Assembly: GCF_964204865.1 (NCBI RefSeq)
Contig: NC_135260.1
Coordinates: forward strand, 15,314,001-15,378,000
DNA: 64,000 nucleotides
From: Styela clava
Taxonomy: Eukaryota
Direction of reading: 5' to 3'
Made by a program: the position numbers. This document shows, piece by piece, positions 30,001-48,000 of the stretch. Numbering within the stretch: position 1 is the first letter of the stretch; each line of letters starts with the position of its first letter.

Positions 30001-33000
30001 AATTGCTCAAGTTCCGTGTAAAAAACACTTCTAATTAATATTTATATCTAAAGTGTTCAAAATCATTTCACATAGTGTTATATAATGTTGCATCCTATTT
30101 ATTCCTATATTAAGCCAACCCTTTGCGAACTGGTGTGTCTACAAAATCTGCATGAATGGCCTAGACCAGAGAAATGTATATTTTACACTAAAAATCTGAT
30201 TTGTTTCGATGATCCCACCTTTGCTCCAGAAGTGATTATATTGCACGAGAATGTGTATACTGCTTGTTCTGTTTTCATCCATAAGAATACAAGTTACCCA
30301 AATAATTGGTATCTCGCCCTGCCTTCCCACCCATTTCGCTTCTATCAATTTTATGTGTTTTGATATTTTGTTATCGATTGTATTGATTATATTGAATCTT
30401 AAATTATACAAAGTCTACAATTTACTACAGCACTTGCATGAAGGGCTCTGACCAAAGAAATGCTTAATGTTTAAACCAAAATCAAATTTGTTTCGATGAT
30501 TACATGTTCATAATCCTGCTTGATATTTTTTAACTTATATTCATTCAAAAGTATAAAAGTTATCTTGCCCGCCCACACTTATTTCGATATGTGGATAATT
30601 CCGTTATTTAAAAAAACACTTTCATATTAGAAAATAGTAATATACATGTAAATATTGTATATAGTGAATAAACCTGGGAGGTATTGATATATTGACACCG
30701 AACCTGTTATTTTTATGCCTATTTAATTAAATTGGGTCACAACTGACCCTGATGACCCCCAAAGGTCGTATCGTTGCCTCCCAGTCATGCACCGAAACAT
30801 CTGTTTATTTGATATTTGTGTATTGTGTGCATATATCGTTTTCTTGGTTTGACAAAATGAAATAAACTCTTCCTCTCTCTCTTTATCAGTACCTATAAGC
30901 GACATGTGGTTCATTGTTTTGAATAGAAATGATGTATTTGAACATGTGAGCAAGTTTAAAGCGCCGACTCCTCAAACACTCTCAAAAATATATGCATTTT
31001 GTCACGCTTGGTAGATCTGGGCTGATTTGAGACTACCAGGCATCGCACACACCACGGTCTTTTCGGAAACTTGCCTGAGCTGTCGACATGAAGGCGAAGG
31101 GAGAACTTAGGGAATATAAGGTTGTTGGGCGAAAATTGCCCAGCGAGACCGAAAAAAATCCTCCCCTGTTTCGTATGAGGTTGTTCGCTCCTGACCACAT
31201 CGCCGCAAAGAGCAGATTCTGGTACTATCTTTCTTATTATAAGAAAATTAAGAAGAATGCTGGGGAAATTTTACAATGCTCAAAAATGACGGAGAAATCT
31301 CCAGGGCGAGTGAAAAATTTTGGAATATGGCTGCGTTACGATTCTAGAAGTGGTTCTCACAATATGTACAGGGAATACAGAGATGTCAAAGTGGCAAGTG
31401 CAGTCACCCAATGTTACAGAGACATGGGTGCTCGTCACAGAGCACGACCTGGTTCTATCCAGATCATGAAAGTGGAGGAAGTTGCTGCTTCAAAGTGCAG
31501 AAGAACAAATGTTAAGCAATTTCATGATTCCAAGATCCGGTTTCCAATGCCTAGACGTGTGCTAAGCAAATCACAGCAAAATGCTCGTCGTTTCACCACA
31601 AGAAAACCTATGTTGTTTTAAACTTTGCAACGTGGTGTTGGAATAAATTTGAAAGAGGAGTGGTCTATATATTGTGTTTACGTACAGAGTATAGAGGTGA
31701 AGATAAAAGGTTCAGGTTATTTTTAGGTATGAAGGCTGGCAATACGGTCTCATTTTAATCGGGTGTATACAGATATACCGCTGTACAGCCTGGTACTACA
31801 CATCCTGTACCGTCTTATGGTAACTTTGATTCCCCCATGCTAGCCACTAACATAATCCAGCGGAACTGCGGTTGTTTTATTGATTTAACAGATTTGTCGA
31901 TCTCTAATTGCAGTTATAGGTTCGGTGATATAGCAAAAAAGTTAGTGGATGGATGTTTCAGCGACAGCGACGTGCTCACTTAGAAAATTATGTCATTGGG
32001 TTACCTTTGTTCATTCTGAATGTATAGTTTATCACAATTCAGTGGTTGTCTGTTGTGTCGTGTAGATTTGCTCTCGCGTTCAGTTTAAACTTCACTCCCG
32101 TTTTTGTAGGCATAACATCACACGCATGCATGATTATCGGGTATTTATCATGTAGAATGCATCACCATCCTCAACATACCACATACATGGCTATAATTAC
32201 ACATCAGTTGTATTCAACTTTAACATATTTAAGGGACATTTGCACTAGTGATAACTTGGTAAATATGAATATGTGTACGCTGAGCTAGAGTGCATATGTA
32301 TGAATAAAACATTGCTTTATGCGGTCAGATAGTCTTTAACATTTCATGTGATTTTTGCGTAGAGTCAGACTCCCAACGTCAACAGAACTTCTACACAACA
32401 ATATCCAAAAGCATGTAAACAGTTTTAAAAAATTCGATAAATACATGTCACCACACATACTCTTGATACATTTGTAAATTATTGCACTGATGTCTTGATT
32501 AATTAGTTGAATCTTGGAACTTGATAAGAACAATGTAGAAACAAGTTCACAAGATGTACTGCTCAGATGAACATTATCACATATTTGGAATATTTACATA
32601 TATTCATTCAACTACATGCTTTTTTGACGAGTGTAACAATAATATCTAGTTGGGGCTCTTTATTAGGAGAATCTAACGAGTCACGAAATAATTGAGTATG
32701 TTGCCAAGCATTATCACCTTCCCCGCCAGATAAAAAGGCATGGATAGATATAACAGTAGTCCCGAACACCTCATGTGTGAGGGAAACAGTTTCTTTGATA
32801 GGAATCGTATGGCTATCTGTGCAGATGAGAAATTTGACAGAACCCGATTGGAATACAGTTGGCTTTATTCTCAATTTTATCTCCTTTATAACAATATCAG
32901 ATTTTAGTTGTGTTAGGTCAATTTTCCAAGATAAATGGGCTTTTTTACTGTGTTCAGCACGAGCTAAATACACCATTTTCCAATCACTTTCAACTTTCCT

Positions 33001-45000: not shown

Positions 45001-48000
45001 GATGACGACTGAGTCATCAAAATTGGGAATAAAAGCAGATGACATTATTGATTTCCTTCATCATTATCCCGGTCCTGTAGTAAGTTACTTAGAACATTTG
45101 GTGTTTGTTTGCAGGATACAAAAAGAAAAGTATCACACTCATCTTGCAGTTCTTTACCTGGATACTGTTTTGAAATTAAAAGAACAATCAGGAGATGAAG
45201 AATCTTTGGTTGCTGCGAGGCAGAGATTACAAAAACTTTTGAAAGTCTCAAATATGTACAGAATATCATTGATACTTAGTAAAGTGAGAGATACTGACTT
45301 GCACGCAGAAAGTGTTATTTTACATGGAAAATTGGGTGAACATAAGAAGGCTCTTGATTTACTTGTTAATCGAATGAAGGACCAAACGGCTGCCGAAGAA
45401 TATTGCATGGAACAAAGCACCGATCATGAAAGCAGAAAGTTATTATTTCAAAATTTACTTTCTGTTTATCTATCAAAAGTTTCATTGGATTCAAAGACTG
45501 GCAAATCCGCAATGGCTGTTGTTGATATTTTAAACAAGCATGCTGAGTATTATGATGCTCAAAGAGTATTAAATTTGCTTCCAAAAGCTTGGTCAATATC
45601 ACAACTCCAACAGTTTTTGAGTCGCACTGTACGACTGCGGATGTACAATCTACATACAAGTCATTTGCAGCTGATGCTCGAGAAATGTGAAAATAACAGC
45701 ACCAAAAAAGAAAATGTGAATCTGATGAACACTAGCGTTCGCATTTCGGAAGACAAAATTTGTCAAGTGTGCAATAGGCTGTTTCAAGATTCTGATTGTG
45801 TATTATACCCCAATGGTGTTGCAGTTCATACCCACTGTGGAAGTAATAAGTATGTTTGTCCTGTAACTGGCCAGTTATTCAAAACTCTTCCAATTCCTAA
45901 GCACTAATCCACGAGTTAAAAGTAAATATATATCCACTAATTTAATTAATATTTATCTACATAATTTTGTAGGGCCATCTCATCAAGTTGTAATATATTC
46001 ATATTATAAACAAATAGCAGCAAATCATACTTCACAACAGATCTTTTGATTGATGTACAGTTGCGATCTGTGTAAAATTAGTAAGACCTGGCCTGGGTAA
46101 CTTGAAATATTAGACGATGGATACTTGATTGGATATAGAAACATTTTATAAAGAAAATACCATTGGAATCAAACTATTTTATCCATATTACAAATTTATT
46201 TGGTTCATTTCAAGCTTGATAAATATTTGTGAATGAGTTTCTTAGACGCTGAATGTACTAGTATTTTCCAATCAAACCTTTCATATTGTTGATTTTAATA
46301 TCTTTCTAGCAGATATATTTTTAAATTTATGACAACATTATGTAGAAAATACCAATCTAATAATATGCATTACCTTGGTTTTTGATCGGCTATAAATAGT
46401 TTCCAAATAGTATAATATATTAATATAAAAAATTTGAATCGGTTTGATTTGTAAAATCGATATATTATTGTGATCTATAATTTGAATTCATCAGTGTTAT
46501 GGTATTCCACACTAGTAAATCTGCGAAGTAAAGTATTCTGTGAGAAAAGTTCAATATAGCTCTCTTGCATCAATATGCAGATATAGGGAAAAATTTTTAA
46601 AAATTTTTTTTTTTGGGAAAGTTTTTCATTTGCAATTCCAAGATTGAATTTGGCCTCACTCTTTCTAAAGTGTAATCCGATAACACAACAGTAGTGCTCA
46701 TACTACCAATTTTTATATATTCAAATTAATGTTGAAGTCTAGAAAAAGAGGTTCAGGCCTGTATTGACATAAAGGCTGCATCAACTAGTGGGGTTGTTTG
46801 TATTTTTCTAGTTAAAACAAGAAAGTAAACTTATTTCATTCTAGTTGGAGCTGCAGGCCGATCACAATGCTGAGTTAAATTGGAACAAATGTTTGAATTG
46901 TTTCTATCTAGATTAGGGTGGTCCAAACCCAGGCCCGCGGGCCACATGTGGCCCGCCGCTCCATTATCTGTGGCCCGCGTCGCATTTTCGGAAGAGTAAA
47001 CAAAAAATCCCGTTTGGTGTAGTTTCACCATAAAAATAACCAGAAAATACCACAATGCTCTGGTTGGTGACAATCTAAAACGGCATTTTGTCCCTGTGAC
47101 ACTTTCTCCGTTATGAAGAGTTTGAAATCTTACACTGAATGTCGATATAGTAAGATTTTTGCAGGTTTAAGTGAGTTTTTTAGTGGATTTTGCATGTTTC
47201 AGCTTGATAAATGACACATAATGATAAGTGTTTGGACAATGAAAATGTTTGTTTTATATTCAGTGTTTACCTATTGTGACCCTAGAGATACAAAAATAAA
47301 GTGTGGCCCGCGAGGCCGACAACCTTGGACAACCCTGTTCTGGATCCTAGATATAGATTGCTATATGTTGGTAACTACTTAAATTTGAGTGTGTGTTTTA
47401 TGCTTATACATCACCCTTTGAATTGTATTTGTGATTGGCACTTCACACACTTGTAACTGTAATCAAAACTTTAAGTTTGTTGTGGGATCTATAAGTAATA
47501 TGACACTCAATAATTCTCAATGGATGTGAATTAATTTGTTTTGGGAATGAGTTCCCTGATGGTTTTGTTTTCCTTTTTTATAATATCATGTGCAATAAAT
47601 AATTTCAAAATTTAAAACAAGCAAATTATTTGTACAAAACAGAGTTGATTAGTGTGTGTAAATAAGGCTCTGGCTGTATAGGCGAATTGACTAGCTTCCG
47701 AGAGCCAAGATGACATTAAATCAATCATTTTAAAAAAATAGTTTAGGGCTTAAAACTCTTCAAATTTGAAGCTTCACAAGCTTTTGTAACTCGTTCGTAT
47801 TTTCTAAAAAGCTCGTTCGAGTATTTTTGATGTGTTTAGCGGCTGGTATCTAGTAGGATGTTGACGAAATTTCAAACTCGGTTTTTCCAGGATTTTGTCT
47901 ATTTCAATGAGGGGCTTTATCGCTGGGGGGAGGGAAAGTAGATAGGACGTCCTAATCATACGACGAACCACGACCTCTCGTCCGGTTACCAGTACATGTC

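What the first reader, a model, noticed from the sequence alone, without database searches (positions are those of the whole stretch)
31058..45907. Three consecutive housekeeping genes with completely intronless coding sequences (RPL18a, NGLY1, TGFBRAP1)
Seen: uninterrupted ORFs of 534, 1887 and 2736 bp, intact and with catalytic or conserved residues, right next to a normally spliced five-exon gene. No poly(A) tracts or TSDs flank them. NGLY1 and TGFBRAP1 each have a splice acceptor just before the ATG, and RPL18a has its own TCT initiator. Established: the vertebrate orthologues are multi-intron genes, and reverse-transcriptase-mediated intron loss spares 5' introns. Inference: either in-place wholesale intron erasure by cDNA recombination concentrated in this neighbourhood, or a landing zone of functional retrogenes that replaced their parents. 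This is the strongest candidate in the window for an under-described process.
Basis: partly seen in the sequence, partly recalled or inferred. Interest (0 to 1): 0.7.

Follow-up and report, generated by a model that had tools for sequence, protein, structure and literature searches.

The report
Three intronless housekeeping genes, tunicate genome
Three neighbouring housekeeping genes in a sea-squirt-type (tunicate) genome really do lack introns in their coding sequence, but this fits the heavy intron loss and trans-splicing already known in tunicates rather than a new local process.

Summary
Uninterrupted ORFs of 534, 1887 and 2736 bp encode full-length RPL18a/eL20 (+), NGLY1 (minus strand) and TGFBRAP1 (+). 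All three are collinear with their orthologues, have conserved catalytic and zinc residues, and hide no in-frame intron. No recognisable gene lies between them, and a properly spliced five-exon BMP3-like gene lies upstream.

RPL18a is 84-85% identical to ascidian proteins against about 70% to vertebrates, and the TGFBRAP1 and NGLY1 trees place the window inside a fully supported tunicate clade.

In Ciona, 15% of non-operon genes and 38% of operon genes are single-exon. About half of genes are SL trans-spliced at an acceptor near the ATG. Ribosomal-protein genes start at a polypyrimidine initiator and are mostly not trans-spliced. Those facts account for every "odd" feature.

At Ciona-like rates, roughly 50-110 runs of three single-exon genes are expected per genome. 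Ten unnamed tunicate TGFBRAP1 orthologues are also full-length single proteins, several on 24-808 kb contigs. This suggests (by inference) an old, lineage-wide loss for that gene.

No poly(A) tracts, target-site duplications or second copies were found. Verdict: ordinary tunicate intron loss with chance adjacency. Low interest.

The parts
31057..31064 (+). Polypyrimidine (TCT-like) candidate start site of RPL18a, GTCTTTTC. It would give a 29-nt unspliced 5' UTR (31059-31087).
   Evidence: Sequence read. It matches 7 of 8 consensus positions, and the strict consensus is not enriched in the window. All 79 Ciona RP genes start in a polypyrimidine tract (PMC4691747 passages). The start site is inferred, not shown.
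31088..31621 (+). RPL18a / eL20 coding sequence, 177 aa, no intron.
   Evidence: ORF. Pfam PF01775, E 8.9e-23. 85% identity to Phallusia mammillata and 84% to Ciona savignyi. Collinear with 5 orthologues.
31642..31647 (+). AATAAA polyadenylation signal 20 nt after the RPL18a stop. No genomic A tract follows it.
32608..34494 (-). NGLY1 (cytosolic PNGase) coding sequence, 628 aa, no intron. It is convergent with RPL18a, with 986 nt between the two stop codons.
   Evidence: ORF. Pfam PUB, Transglut_core, Rad4 and PAW. Collinear with 6 orthologues, with the triad and zinc cysteines invariant. No hidden in-frame intron.
34510..34525 (-). Pyrimidine-rich tract plus AG acceptor, 15 nt upstream of the NGLY1 ATG. 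Candidate SL trans-splice acceptor, or the acceptor of a 5' UTR intron.
   Evidence: Sequence read. About half of Ciona genes are SL trans-spliced at unpaired acceptors (PMC1488885 passages). Use of this site is not shown.
43160..43170 (+). Acceptor-like caattattcAG, 1 nt upstream of the TGFBRAP1 ATG. Candidate SL trans-splice acceptor.
   Evidence: Sequence read. Use of this site is not shown.
43172..45907 (+). TGFBRAP1 (Vps39-2, CORVET subunit) coding sequence, 911 aa, no intron. It is divergent from NGLY1, 8.7 kb away.
   Evidence: ORF. Pfam CNH and zf-Vps39_C. Functionally named hits are TGFBRAP1. Sits in the tunicate clade with 100/100 support. The only window-specific insertion is 8 aa and is not bounded by GT..AG.
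9701..17071 (+). Context: a spliced five-exon BMP3-like TGF-beta family gene. Exons are at about 9701-10390, 14948-15364, 15469-15762, 16044-16553/16562 and 16886-17071, with GT-AG introns. One intron splits the ligand domain.
   Evidence: ORFs. TGFb_propeptide and TGF_beta Pfam hits on single exons. Coding-potential scan. Splice-site context. Best solved-structure match for both ligand exons is BMP3. Exon ends are approximate, and the exons were never joined.
25869..28001 (+). Context: a decayed, frameshifted hAT-type transposase relic between the BMP3-like gene and RPL18a.
   Evidence: DUF4371 and Dimer_Tnp_hAT hits lie on separate frames.
34818..40250 (.). Context: a 5.4 kb segment bracketed by ~160-nt inverted repeats (34818-34976 and 40091-40250). 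It fills most of the NGLY1-TGFBRAP1 gap and contains no recognisable gene.
   Evidence: The 18-nt core occurs only at these two places, against 0.06 expected. Of 11 interior and flanking open frames tested, none has a Pfam hit better than E 0.098, and that one hit is below its cut-off. No solved-structure match.

Best explanation
These are the native, functional tunicate copies of RPL18a, NGLY1 and TGFBRAP1. They have lost every ancestral intron from their coding sequence, as a large share of tunicate genes have. Their adjacency is coincidence.

Expression follows the two standard ascidian modes:
- RPL18a is transcribed from a polypyrimidine initiator and is not trans-spliced.
- NGLY1 and TGFBRAP1 are transcribed from upstream, and a spliced leader is trans-spliced onto the acceptor just before the ATG. 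Alternatively they keep a 5' UTR intron.

The most likely loss mechanism is recombination of the gene with a reverse-transcribed copy of its own spliced, germline-expressed mRNA. That removes all downstream introns precisely and together. The developmental BMP3-like neighbour keeps its introns.

Shown here: the intronless, intact, conserved coding sequences; the tunicate origin; the acceptor and initiator sequences; and the absence of retrogene hallmarks.

Inferred: the use of those signals, the reverse-transcriptase mechanism, the different ages of the three losses, and the base rate in this particular genome.
For: Lineage:
- RPL18a is 85/84/84% identical to Phallusia, Ciona savignyi and Clavelina, against about 65-71% for vertebrates and others.
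- TGFBRAP1 tree: the window, 10 unnamed records and Ciona form one clade with 100/100 support (22 rows).
- NGLY1 tree: tunicate clade with support 1.0 (19 rows, FastTree).

Base rate:
- In Ciona, single-exon genes are 38% of operon genes and 15% of non-operon genes (PMC2760879 passage).
- My arithmetic gives an overall 19%, and 52-111 expected runs of three per 15,300 genes.

Expression modes:
- All 79 Ciona RP genes start in a polypyrimidine tract.
- 71 of 76 sampled RP genes are not trans-spliced, and about 50% of expressed genes are trans-spliced.
- This matches the signals read.

Function:
- End-to-end collinearity and invariant catalytic and zinc residues.

Age of the losses:
- 10 unnamed TGFBRAP1 orthologues of 892-913 aa cover 97-100% of the query. 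Six sit on contigs of 24-808 kb, and they span both deep tunicate subclades.
- None of the 120 listed NGLY1 hits comes from the 'ena' source. This suggests NGLY1 is interrupted in those genomes, so the losses differ in age.

Contrast within the window:
- The BMP3-like neighbour has GT-AG introns.

Background:
- Massive loss of ancestral introns is documented in Oikopleura, where only 17% of mapped introns are old (review PMC4122922 passage).
- Loss of adjacent introns together is a prediction of the reverse-transcriptase model (PMC3652778 passages).
Against: - The base rate is Ciona's, not this genome's. For conserved housekeeping genes the single-exon fraction may be lower than 15-19%.
- Within one 4-gene window, a run of three has a probability of only about 0.6-1.3% at Ciona rates. 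The run is locally uncommon and becomes expected only across a genome-wide scan.
The three short Logan contigs of 3.1-9.6 kb could be transcripts.
- No RNA evidence exists for trans-splicing, the start site or expression.
- The reverse-transcriptase mechanism cannot be told apart from ancient retroposition that replaced the parent gene.
- The RPL18a initiator matches only 7 of 8 consensus positions.
Confidence: 0.72

Rival explanations
1. Orphan retrogenes. Each gene, or some of them, is an old processed copy that inserted here, acquired a promoter or a trans-splice site, and replaced an intron-containing parent that was later lost.
For: - All three coding sequences are intronless, and RPL18a also has an unspliced 5' UTR and a very short 3' UTR.
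- SL trans-splicing would make it easy for an inserted copy to be expressed (general knowledge, inference).
- Orphan retrogenes are a described class. I saw only the search listing for PMC3548309.
- If TGFBRAP1 is a single ORF across tunicates, one ancient replacement would explain that equally well.
Against: - No poly(A) remnant (longest A-run 6 nt) and no target-site duplications. Old insertions would have lost these, so this is weak evidence.
- RPL18a has what looks like a native RP-type polypyrimidine start 29 nt before the ATG. A random insertion would not bring that with it unless the transcript began there.
- Three independent retro-replacements side by side is less parsimonious than the lineage's general intron loss.
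Confidence: 0.15
2. A regionally concentrated process. This chromosomal neighbourhood is a hot spot where cDNA-mediated recombination erased introns from several genes, beyond the genome-wide rate.
For: - 3 of the 4 recognisable genes in 64 kb are intronless.
- At Ciona rates, the probability of at least 3 of 4 is 1.2-2.5%.
Against: - The window was picked out by a scan because it looked odd, so that probability needs a look-elsewhere correction. About 52-111 such runs are expected per genome.
- The genes lie on alternating strands, 1 kb and 8.7 kb apart, separated by repeat debris.
- TGFBRAP1 appears intronless in distant tunicates, whereas NGLY1 shows no comparable 'ena' hits. This suggests losses of different ages (inference).
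- The BMP3-like gene in the same window keeps four introns.
Confidence: 0.05
3. Silent processed pseudogenes or an assembly artefact (cDNA-derived sequence), with the real intron-containing genes elsewhere.
For: The only support is that the coding sequences are intronless.
Against: - Open frames of 177, 628 and 911 codons have no stop. Catalytic and zinc residues are invariant and the proteins are collinear end to end.
- Plausible promoter, acceptor and polyadenylation signals sit in continuous genomic flanks.
- No poly(A) tail is present in the DNA.
- The coding-potential scores are the three highest in the window, but the scoring model was trained on these three genes, so this point is circular.
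Confidence: 0.03

Closest known systems
Single-exon genes of Ciona (Satou et al. 2008, Genome Biol 9:R152; passages read)
   Same: Bona fide protein-coding genes in a tunicate, homologous to multi-exon genes of other animals, that lack introns. They are common: 15% of non-operon and 38% of operon genes.
   Different: In Ciona the excess is tied to operons, especially the 5'-most operon gene. Here the three genes lie on alternating strands, 1 kb and 8.7 kb apart, so they are not an operon. The species is a different tunicate that falls outside the Ciona-containing subclade.
Reverse-transcriptase (mRNA-mediated) intron loss (PMC3652778, passages read)
   Same: Precise, simultaneous loss of adjacent introns. 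It affects housekeeping genes that are presumably expressed in the germline. A possible surviving 5'-most intron or outron remains.
   Different: Here every coding intron is gone, not just a 3'-biased subset. The mechanism itself cannot be observed from one sequence.
SL trans-spliced versus non-trans-spliced gene classes of ascidians (PMC1488885; PMC4691747)
   Same: The ribosomal-protein gene has a polypyrimidine start and no upstream acceptor. The other two genes have an acceptor immediately before the ATG.
   Different: No spliced-leader-bearing transcript was available to show that these acceptors are used. A conventional 5' UTR intron is equally possible.
Orphan / parent-replacing retrogenes (search listing only, PMC3548309)
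   Same: An intronless functional copy is the only copy seen.
   Different: No poly(A) remnant and no target-site duplications. RPL18a has an RP-type initiator. Whether a parent ever existed elsewhere is untestable here.
Oikopleura intron turnover (Denoeud et al. 2010, known to me only through the review PMC4122922; the primary paper is not held)
   Same: [quoted passage not shown]
   Different: This window has long intergenic regions full of transposon relics and a gene with introns of about 100 nt to 4.5 kb. It is not an Oikopleura-like compact genome. The tunicate class of the window is unresolved.

Membership tests
RPL18a / eL20 | Ribosomal_L18A domain and full-length collinearity with eL20 orthologues | tested here: met
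   PF01775, E 8.9e-23. 65-85% identity to 5 orthologues with no internal gap in the window's sequence.
NGLY1 / cytosolic PNGase | PUB + transglutaminase-like core + PAW architecture, Cys-His-Asp triad, and two CxxC zinc motifs | tested here: met
   Pfam domains. C279, H306, D323 and C220/C223/C253/C256 are invariant in 7 of 7 sequences. The definition of the triad and zinc motifs comes from PMC9102325 passages. Which alignment columns are the triad is my reading of the motifs GRCGEW, DHVWTE and HCDPCE.
TGFBRAP1 (Vps39-2, CORVET subunit) | CNH domain, C-terminal Vps39 zinc finger, and orthology to TGFBRAP1 rather than VPS39 | tested here: met
   Pfam. Hits with a functional name among the 118 are TGFBRAP1 and none is VPS39. 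Clusters with Ciona TGFBRAP1-like. No VPS39 sequences were included in the tree, so orthology rests on hit names and ranking.
Processed retrogene (retroposition) | Poly(A) tract remnant just after the 3' end | tested here: not met
   The longest A-run within 1500 nt downstream is 6 nt for RPL18a and TGFBRAP1, and none of 6 nt or more for NGLY1.
Processed retrogene (retroposition) | Flanking target-site duplications | tested here: not met
   Only scattered shared 10-14-mers at implausible positions. One lies inside the RPL18a coding sequence.
Processed retrogene (retroposition) | An intron-containing parental copy elsewhere in the genome | not testable with these tools
   Only 64 kb of this genome is available, and it holds no second copy. 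The one open genome collection contains bacteria and archaea only.
In-place reverse-transcriptase-mediated intron loss | Precise intron removal that leaves the reading frame and protein collinear | tested here: met
In-place reverse-transcriptase-mediated intron loss | The gene remains at the ancestral (syntenic) position, and relatives have introns at that locus | not testable with these tools
   No eukaryotic genome context is available.
SL trans-spliced tunicate gene | An unpaired 3' splice acceptor upstream of the start codon | tested here: inconclusive
   Acceptor-like sites lie 15 nt and 1 nt before the ATGs. Whether a paired donor lies upstream cannot be decided; one candidate is AAG|GTACTA, about 160 nt upstream of the NGLY1 acceptor.
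SL trans-spliced tunicate gene | A spliced leader present on the mature mRNA | not testable with these tools
   No transcript data.
Tunicate operon | Same-strand genes with little or no intercistronic DNA | tested here: not met
   Strands are +, -, + and the gaps are 986 nt and 8.7 kb. Ciona operons mostly lack intercistronic DNA.

The most novel reading that the evidence does not exclude
Intron erasure in this tunicate is spatially clustered. Certain chromosomal neighbourhoods, perhaps ones that are open and highly transcribed in the germline, or close to active reverse-transcriptase sources, undergo cDNA-mediated gene conversion far more often than the rest of the genome. That would produce local runs of intron-free housekeeping genes. 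My evidence does not exclude this, because I could examine only one 64 kb window and had to borrow the base rate from Ciona.
Probability: 0.05. Interest if true: 0.6.

Novelty: new member of a known kind. Interest (0 to 1): 0.15.

Why it matters
As it stands, the finding matters little. It adds three concrete examples (RPL18a, NGLY1, TGFBRAP1) to the known pattern of heavy intron loss in tunicates. It also shows how a tunicate trans-splice acceptor can be mistaken for a spared 5' intron.

The one lead worth passing on is that TGFBRAP1 may have been a single-exon gene since early in tunicate evolution, while NGLY1 lost its introns only in the window's subclade. If confirmed on annotated genomes, this pair would help date intron-loss events.

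If intronless genes proved to be spatially clustered genome-wide, that would bear on the unresolved question of how mRNA-mediated intron loss works in animals.

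Tried and rejected
- Operon explanation: rejected. The strands alternate and the gaps are 1 kb and 8.7 kb.
- Hidden in-frame introns: none found.
- A second, intron-containing copy in the window: none. The tblastn hits other than the genes themselves have E above 2.
- tRNA and Rfam families in the window: 0 and 0.
- Another gene between NGLY1 and TGFBRAP1: 11 open frames were tested by Pfam. 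None scored better than E 0.098, and that hit was below its cut-off. The frame at 37293-37667, which looked THAP-like to me by eye, has no Pfam hit and no solved-structure match (best E 0.89). The THAP reading is therefore unsupported.
I sent the individual open frames instead.
- Denoeud et al. 2010 (Oikopleura genome): not held.
- Gene-structure statistics in two 2026 tunicate papers: nothing relevant in the passages found.
- RPL18a intron numbers in two ribosomal-protein intron papers: the term 'L18a' does not occur in either main text. Per-gene data may be in supplements, which are closed.
- TCT consensus as statistical evidence: rejected, with 64 matches against 55 expected.
- A 14-nt word shared between the NGLY1 upstream region and the antisense strand of the RPL18a coding sequence: not a target-site duplication by position. 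Treated as chance.

Full report
**Observation**

The middle gene is on the minus strand, which the finding does not mention. The order is therefore RPL18a (+), NGLY1 (-), TGFBRAP1 (+). RPL18a and NGLY1 are convergent with 986 nt between their stop codons. NGLY1 and TGFBRAP1 are divergent, 8.7 kb apart.

Pfam confirms the identities: Ribosomal_L18A for the first; PUB, transglutaminase core, Rad4-like and PAW for the second; CNH plus the Vps39 C-terminal zinc finger for the third. Among the 118 database hits to the third protein, those with a functional name are TGFBRAP1 and none is VPS39. TGFBRAP1 is the Vps39-2 subunit of mammalian CORVET (passage in PMC4935465).

**Are the coding sequences really uninterrupted and intact?**

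- RPL18a aligns end to end with five orthologues at 65-85% identity.
- NGLY1 aligns end to end with six orthologues. C279, H306, D323 and the cysteines at 220, 223, 253 and 256 are invariant in all seven sequences. [quoted passage not shown]
- I tested for in-frame introns hidden inside the long ORFs. These would show as window-only insertions bounded by GT..AG. Across 16, 12 and 9 aligned sequences, the only such insertion is 8 residues in TGFBRAP1 and it is not bounded that way. There are no deletions of six residues or more.

**Flanks**

- Within 1500 nt downstream of each stop, the longest A-run is 6 nt.
- Words shared between upstream and downstream flanks are scattered 10-14-mers at positions that cannot be target-site duplications. 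One lies inside the RPL18a coding sequence.
- tblastn of the three proteins against the window finds no second copy.
- RPL18a has AATAAA 20 nt past its stop.
- An acceptor-like pyrimidine tract plus AG lies 15 nt before the NGLY1 ATG and 1 nt before the TGFBRAP1 ATG.
- The RPL18a 'TCT initiator' is GTCTTTTC at 31057-31064. It matches seven of eight consensus positions. The strict consensus occurs 64 times in the window against 55 expected. The motif carries no statistical weight, and only its position 29 nt before the ATG is suggestive.

**What else is in the window**

A stop-to-stop ORF listing and a codon log-odds scan find one more real gene. The scan was trained on the three genes, so their own top scores are circular.

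- The extra gene is a TGF-beta family gene on the + strand, with exons near 9.7-10.4, 14.9-15.4, 15.5-15.8, 16.0-16.56 and 16.89-17.07 kb.
- Single exons hit TGFb_propeptide and TGF_beta.
- The two ligand-domain exons each match solved BMP3 best (E 2.3e-14 and 7.1e-21).
- The ligand domain is split by a GT-AG intron of roughly 320 nt.
It is about 14 kb from RPL18a, not immediately adjacent.
- I searched this spliced gene exon by exon and did not assemble or search a joined model.

Between the BMP3-like gene and RPL18a lies a frameshifted hAT transposase relic. In the 8.7 kb between NGLY1 and TGFBRAP1, eleven open frames gave no Pfam hit better than E 0.098, and that one is below its cut-off. 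'Three consecutive' therefore holds for recognisable genes. The window has no tRNA or Rfam match and no N.

**Lineage**

The RPL18a protein is 85% identical to Phallusia mammillata, and 84% to Ciona savignyi and Clavelina lepadiformis. It is about 65-71% identical to vertebrate, amphioxus and arthropod proteins.

- In a maximum-likelihood tree of 22 TGFBRAP1 proteins, the window, ten unnamed database records and Ciona form one clade with 100/100 support. That clade is separate from vertebrates, amphioxus, hemichordates and lophotrochozoans. Within it, the window groups with three unnamed records (100/100) as sister to a group containing Ciona.
- A FastTree of 19 NGLY1 proteins gives a tunicate clade with support 1.0. 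There the window groups with the five unnamed records and sits apart from Ciona + Clavelina. Support is 0.9 for four of the five records and 0.65 for all five.

The window is therefore from a tunicate outside the Ciona/Clavelina group. I did not resolve the class. It is not human sequence.

**Why the lineage matters**

In Ciona, single-exon genes make up 38% of operon genes and 15% of non-operon genes (Satou et al. 2008, passage read). About 19% of genes are in operons (review table).

That gives an overall single-exon fraction of about 19%. Under independence, about 52 (at 15%) to 111 (at 19%) runs of three consecutive single-exon genes are expected among 15,300 genes. In any one four-gene window the chance of such a run is only 0.6-1.3%. 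The run is locally uncommon, but a genome-wide scan that flags oddities should meet it many times.

The other 'odd' features are standard ascidian biology:
- All 79 Ciona ribosomal-protein genes start in a polypyrimidine tract.
- 71 of 76 sampled are not trans-spliced.
- About half of expressed genes receive a spliced leader at an unpaired acceptor.

The acceptors before the NGLY1 and TGFBRAP1 start codons are thus most simply trans-splice sites. A conventional 5' UTR intron cannot be excluded. A possible donor, AAG|GTACTA, lies about 160 nt upstream of the NGLY1 acceptor.

**Age of the losses (inference)**

The ten unnamed tunicate TGFBRAP1 orthologues are 892-913 aa and cover 97-100% of the query. 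Six sit on contigs of 24-808 kb.

Records from the same 'ena' source for RPL18a sit on contigs of 599-956 bp. This suggests that proteins from that source are ORF calls on contigs rather than spliced models. If so, TGFBRAP1 is a single ORF in genomic DNA across both deep tunicate subclades, which would be an old loss.

By contrast, none of the 120 listed NGLY1 hits is from 'ena'. The five unnamed full-length NGLY1 relatives are on 2.2-6.1 kb contigs and all group with the window. This hints that NGLY1 lost its introns only in the window's subclade. Different ages would rule out one local event.

The short contigs could be transcripts. This paragraph is inference.

**Mechanism**

The best-supported account is ordinary tunicate intron loss in native genes, most likely through recombination with reverse-transcribed spliced mRNA. 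That model predicts joint loss of adjacent introns and a bias towards germline-expressed genes (PMC3652778 passages). Reverse transcription and recombination have also been proposed for Oikopleura, where only 17% of mapped introns are ancestral (review PMC4122922; the primary paper is not held).

The contrast between three housekeeping genes without introns and a developmental BMP3-like gene with four fits that bias. A sample of four genes proves nothing, however. Ancient retroposition with loss of the parent cannot be separated from in-place loss without synteny data.

**What stayed unchecked**

- No eukaryotic genome context was available, so paralogues elsewhere, synteny, intron positions in relatives, genome-wide clustering, expression and dN/dS remain open.
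- That human RPL18A and TGFBRAP1 are multi-exon is my recollection and comes from no call. Only NGLY1's 12 exons were read.
- Supplementary tables of the Ciona papers are closed. They may list the structure and trans-splicing status of Ciona Rpl18a.
- None of my seven literature searches returned a paper on the exon structure of these three genes in tunicates. None was aimed narrowly at that question, so I cannot say it is not in print.

**Verdict**

Noticed in passing
window 34818-34976 and 40091-40250: A ~160-nt inverted repeat, 90-98% complementary, brackets 5.1 kb immediately upstream of NGLY1. The near arm lies 324-482 nt from the ATG. The arms carry CCAAT-like (ATTGGCCAAT) and CRE-like (GTGACGTAAC) words. 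The 18-nt core occurs only at these two places, against 0.06 expected. I saw no target-site duplication at the outer ends and no recognisable transposase inside. It could be a decayed long-TIR DNA transposon, or a duplicated promoter module facing NGLY1 on one side and TGFBRAP1 on the other.
   Followed up: partly
window 40729-40950 and 47916-48124: Two copies of a ~220-nt repeat in inverted orientation, 78-79% complementary, bracket TGFBRAP1 about 2.2 kb upstream and 2.0 kb downstream. This is probably a dispersed SINE- or MITE-like element. ARAGORN calls no tRNA there.
   Followed up: no
window 9701-17071 (+): The spliced neighbour is BMP3-like. Both ligand-domain exons match solved BMP3 best. 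Its ligand domain is split by a GT-AG intron of about 320 nt, with the donor at 16554 or 16563 and the acceptor AG at 16884-16885. A 4.5 kb first intron separates the signal-peptide exon from the rest.
   Followed up: partly
window 25869-28001 (+): A decayed hAT-family transposase. The DUF4371 and hAT dimerisation domains are spread over several frames, in the most GC-rich part of the window (0.41-0.43).
   Followed up: partly
window 37293-37667 (+): A 123-aa ATG ORF whose N-terminus looked THAP-finger-like to me by eye. It has no Pfam hit and no solved-structure match, so its nature is unknown.
   Followed up: yes
window 42835-42925 (+): A short tandem array of a roughly 30-nt unit (ttctgcgctgtttcgcgctc...) lies about 250-340 nt upstream of the TGFBRAP1 ATG. 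I saw it while reading and did not analyse it.
   Followed up: no
window ~34722-34734 (-) and ~31393-31405: A 14-nt word upstream of NGLY1 recurs on the antisense strand inside the RPL18a coding sequence. About 0.003 such matches are expected for this pair of regions by my rough estimate. The position rules out a target-site duplication, and I treat it as chance.
   Followed up: partly
window 46000-64000: No open frame with a convincing coding signal appears in the last 18 kb, which is AT-rich (GC 0.31-0.39). It holds only repeat-like fragments.
   Followed up: partly
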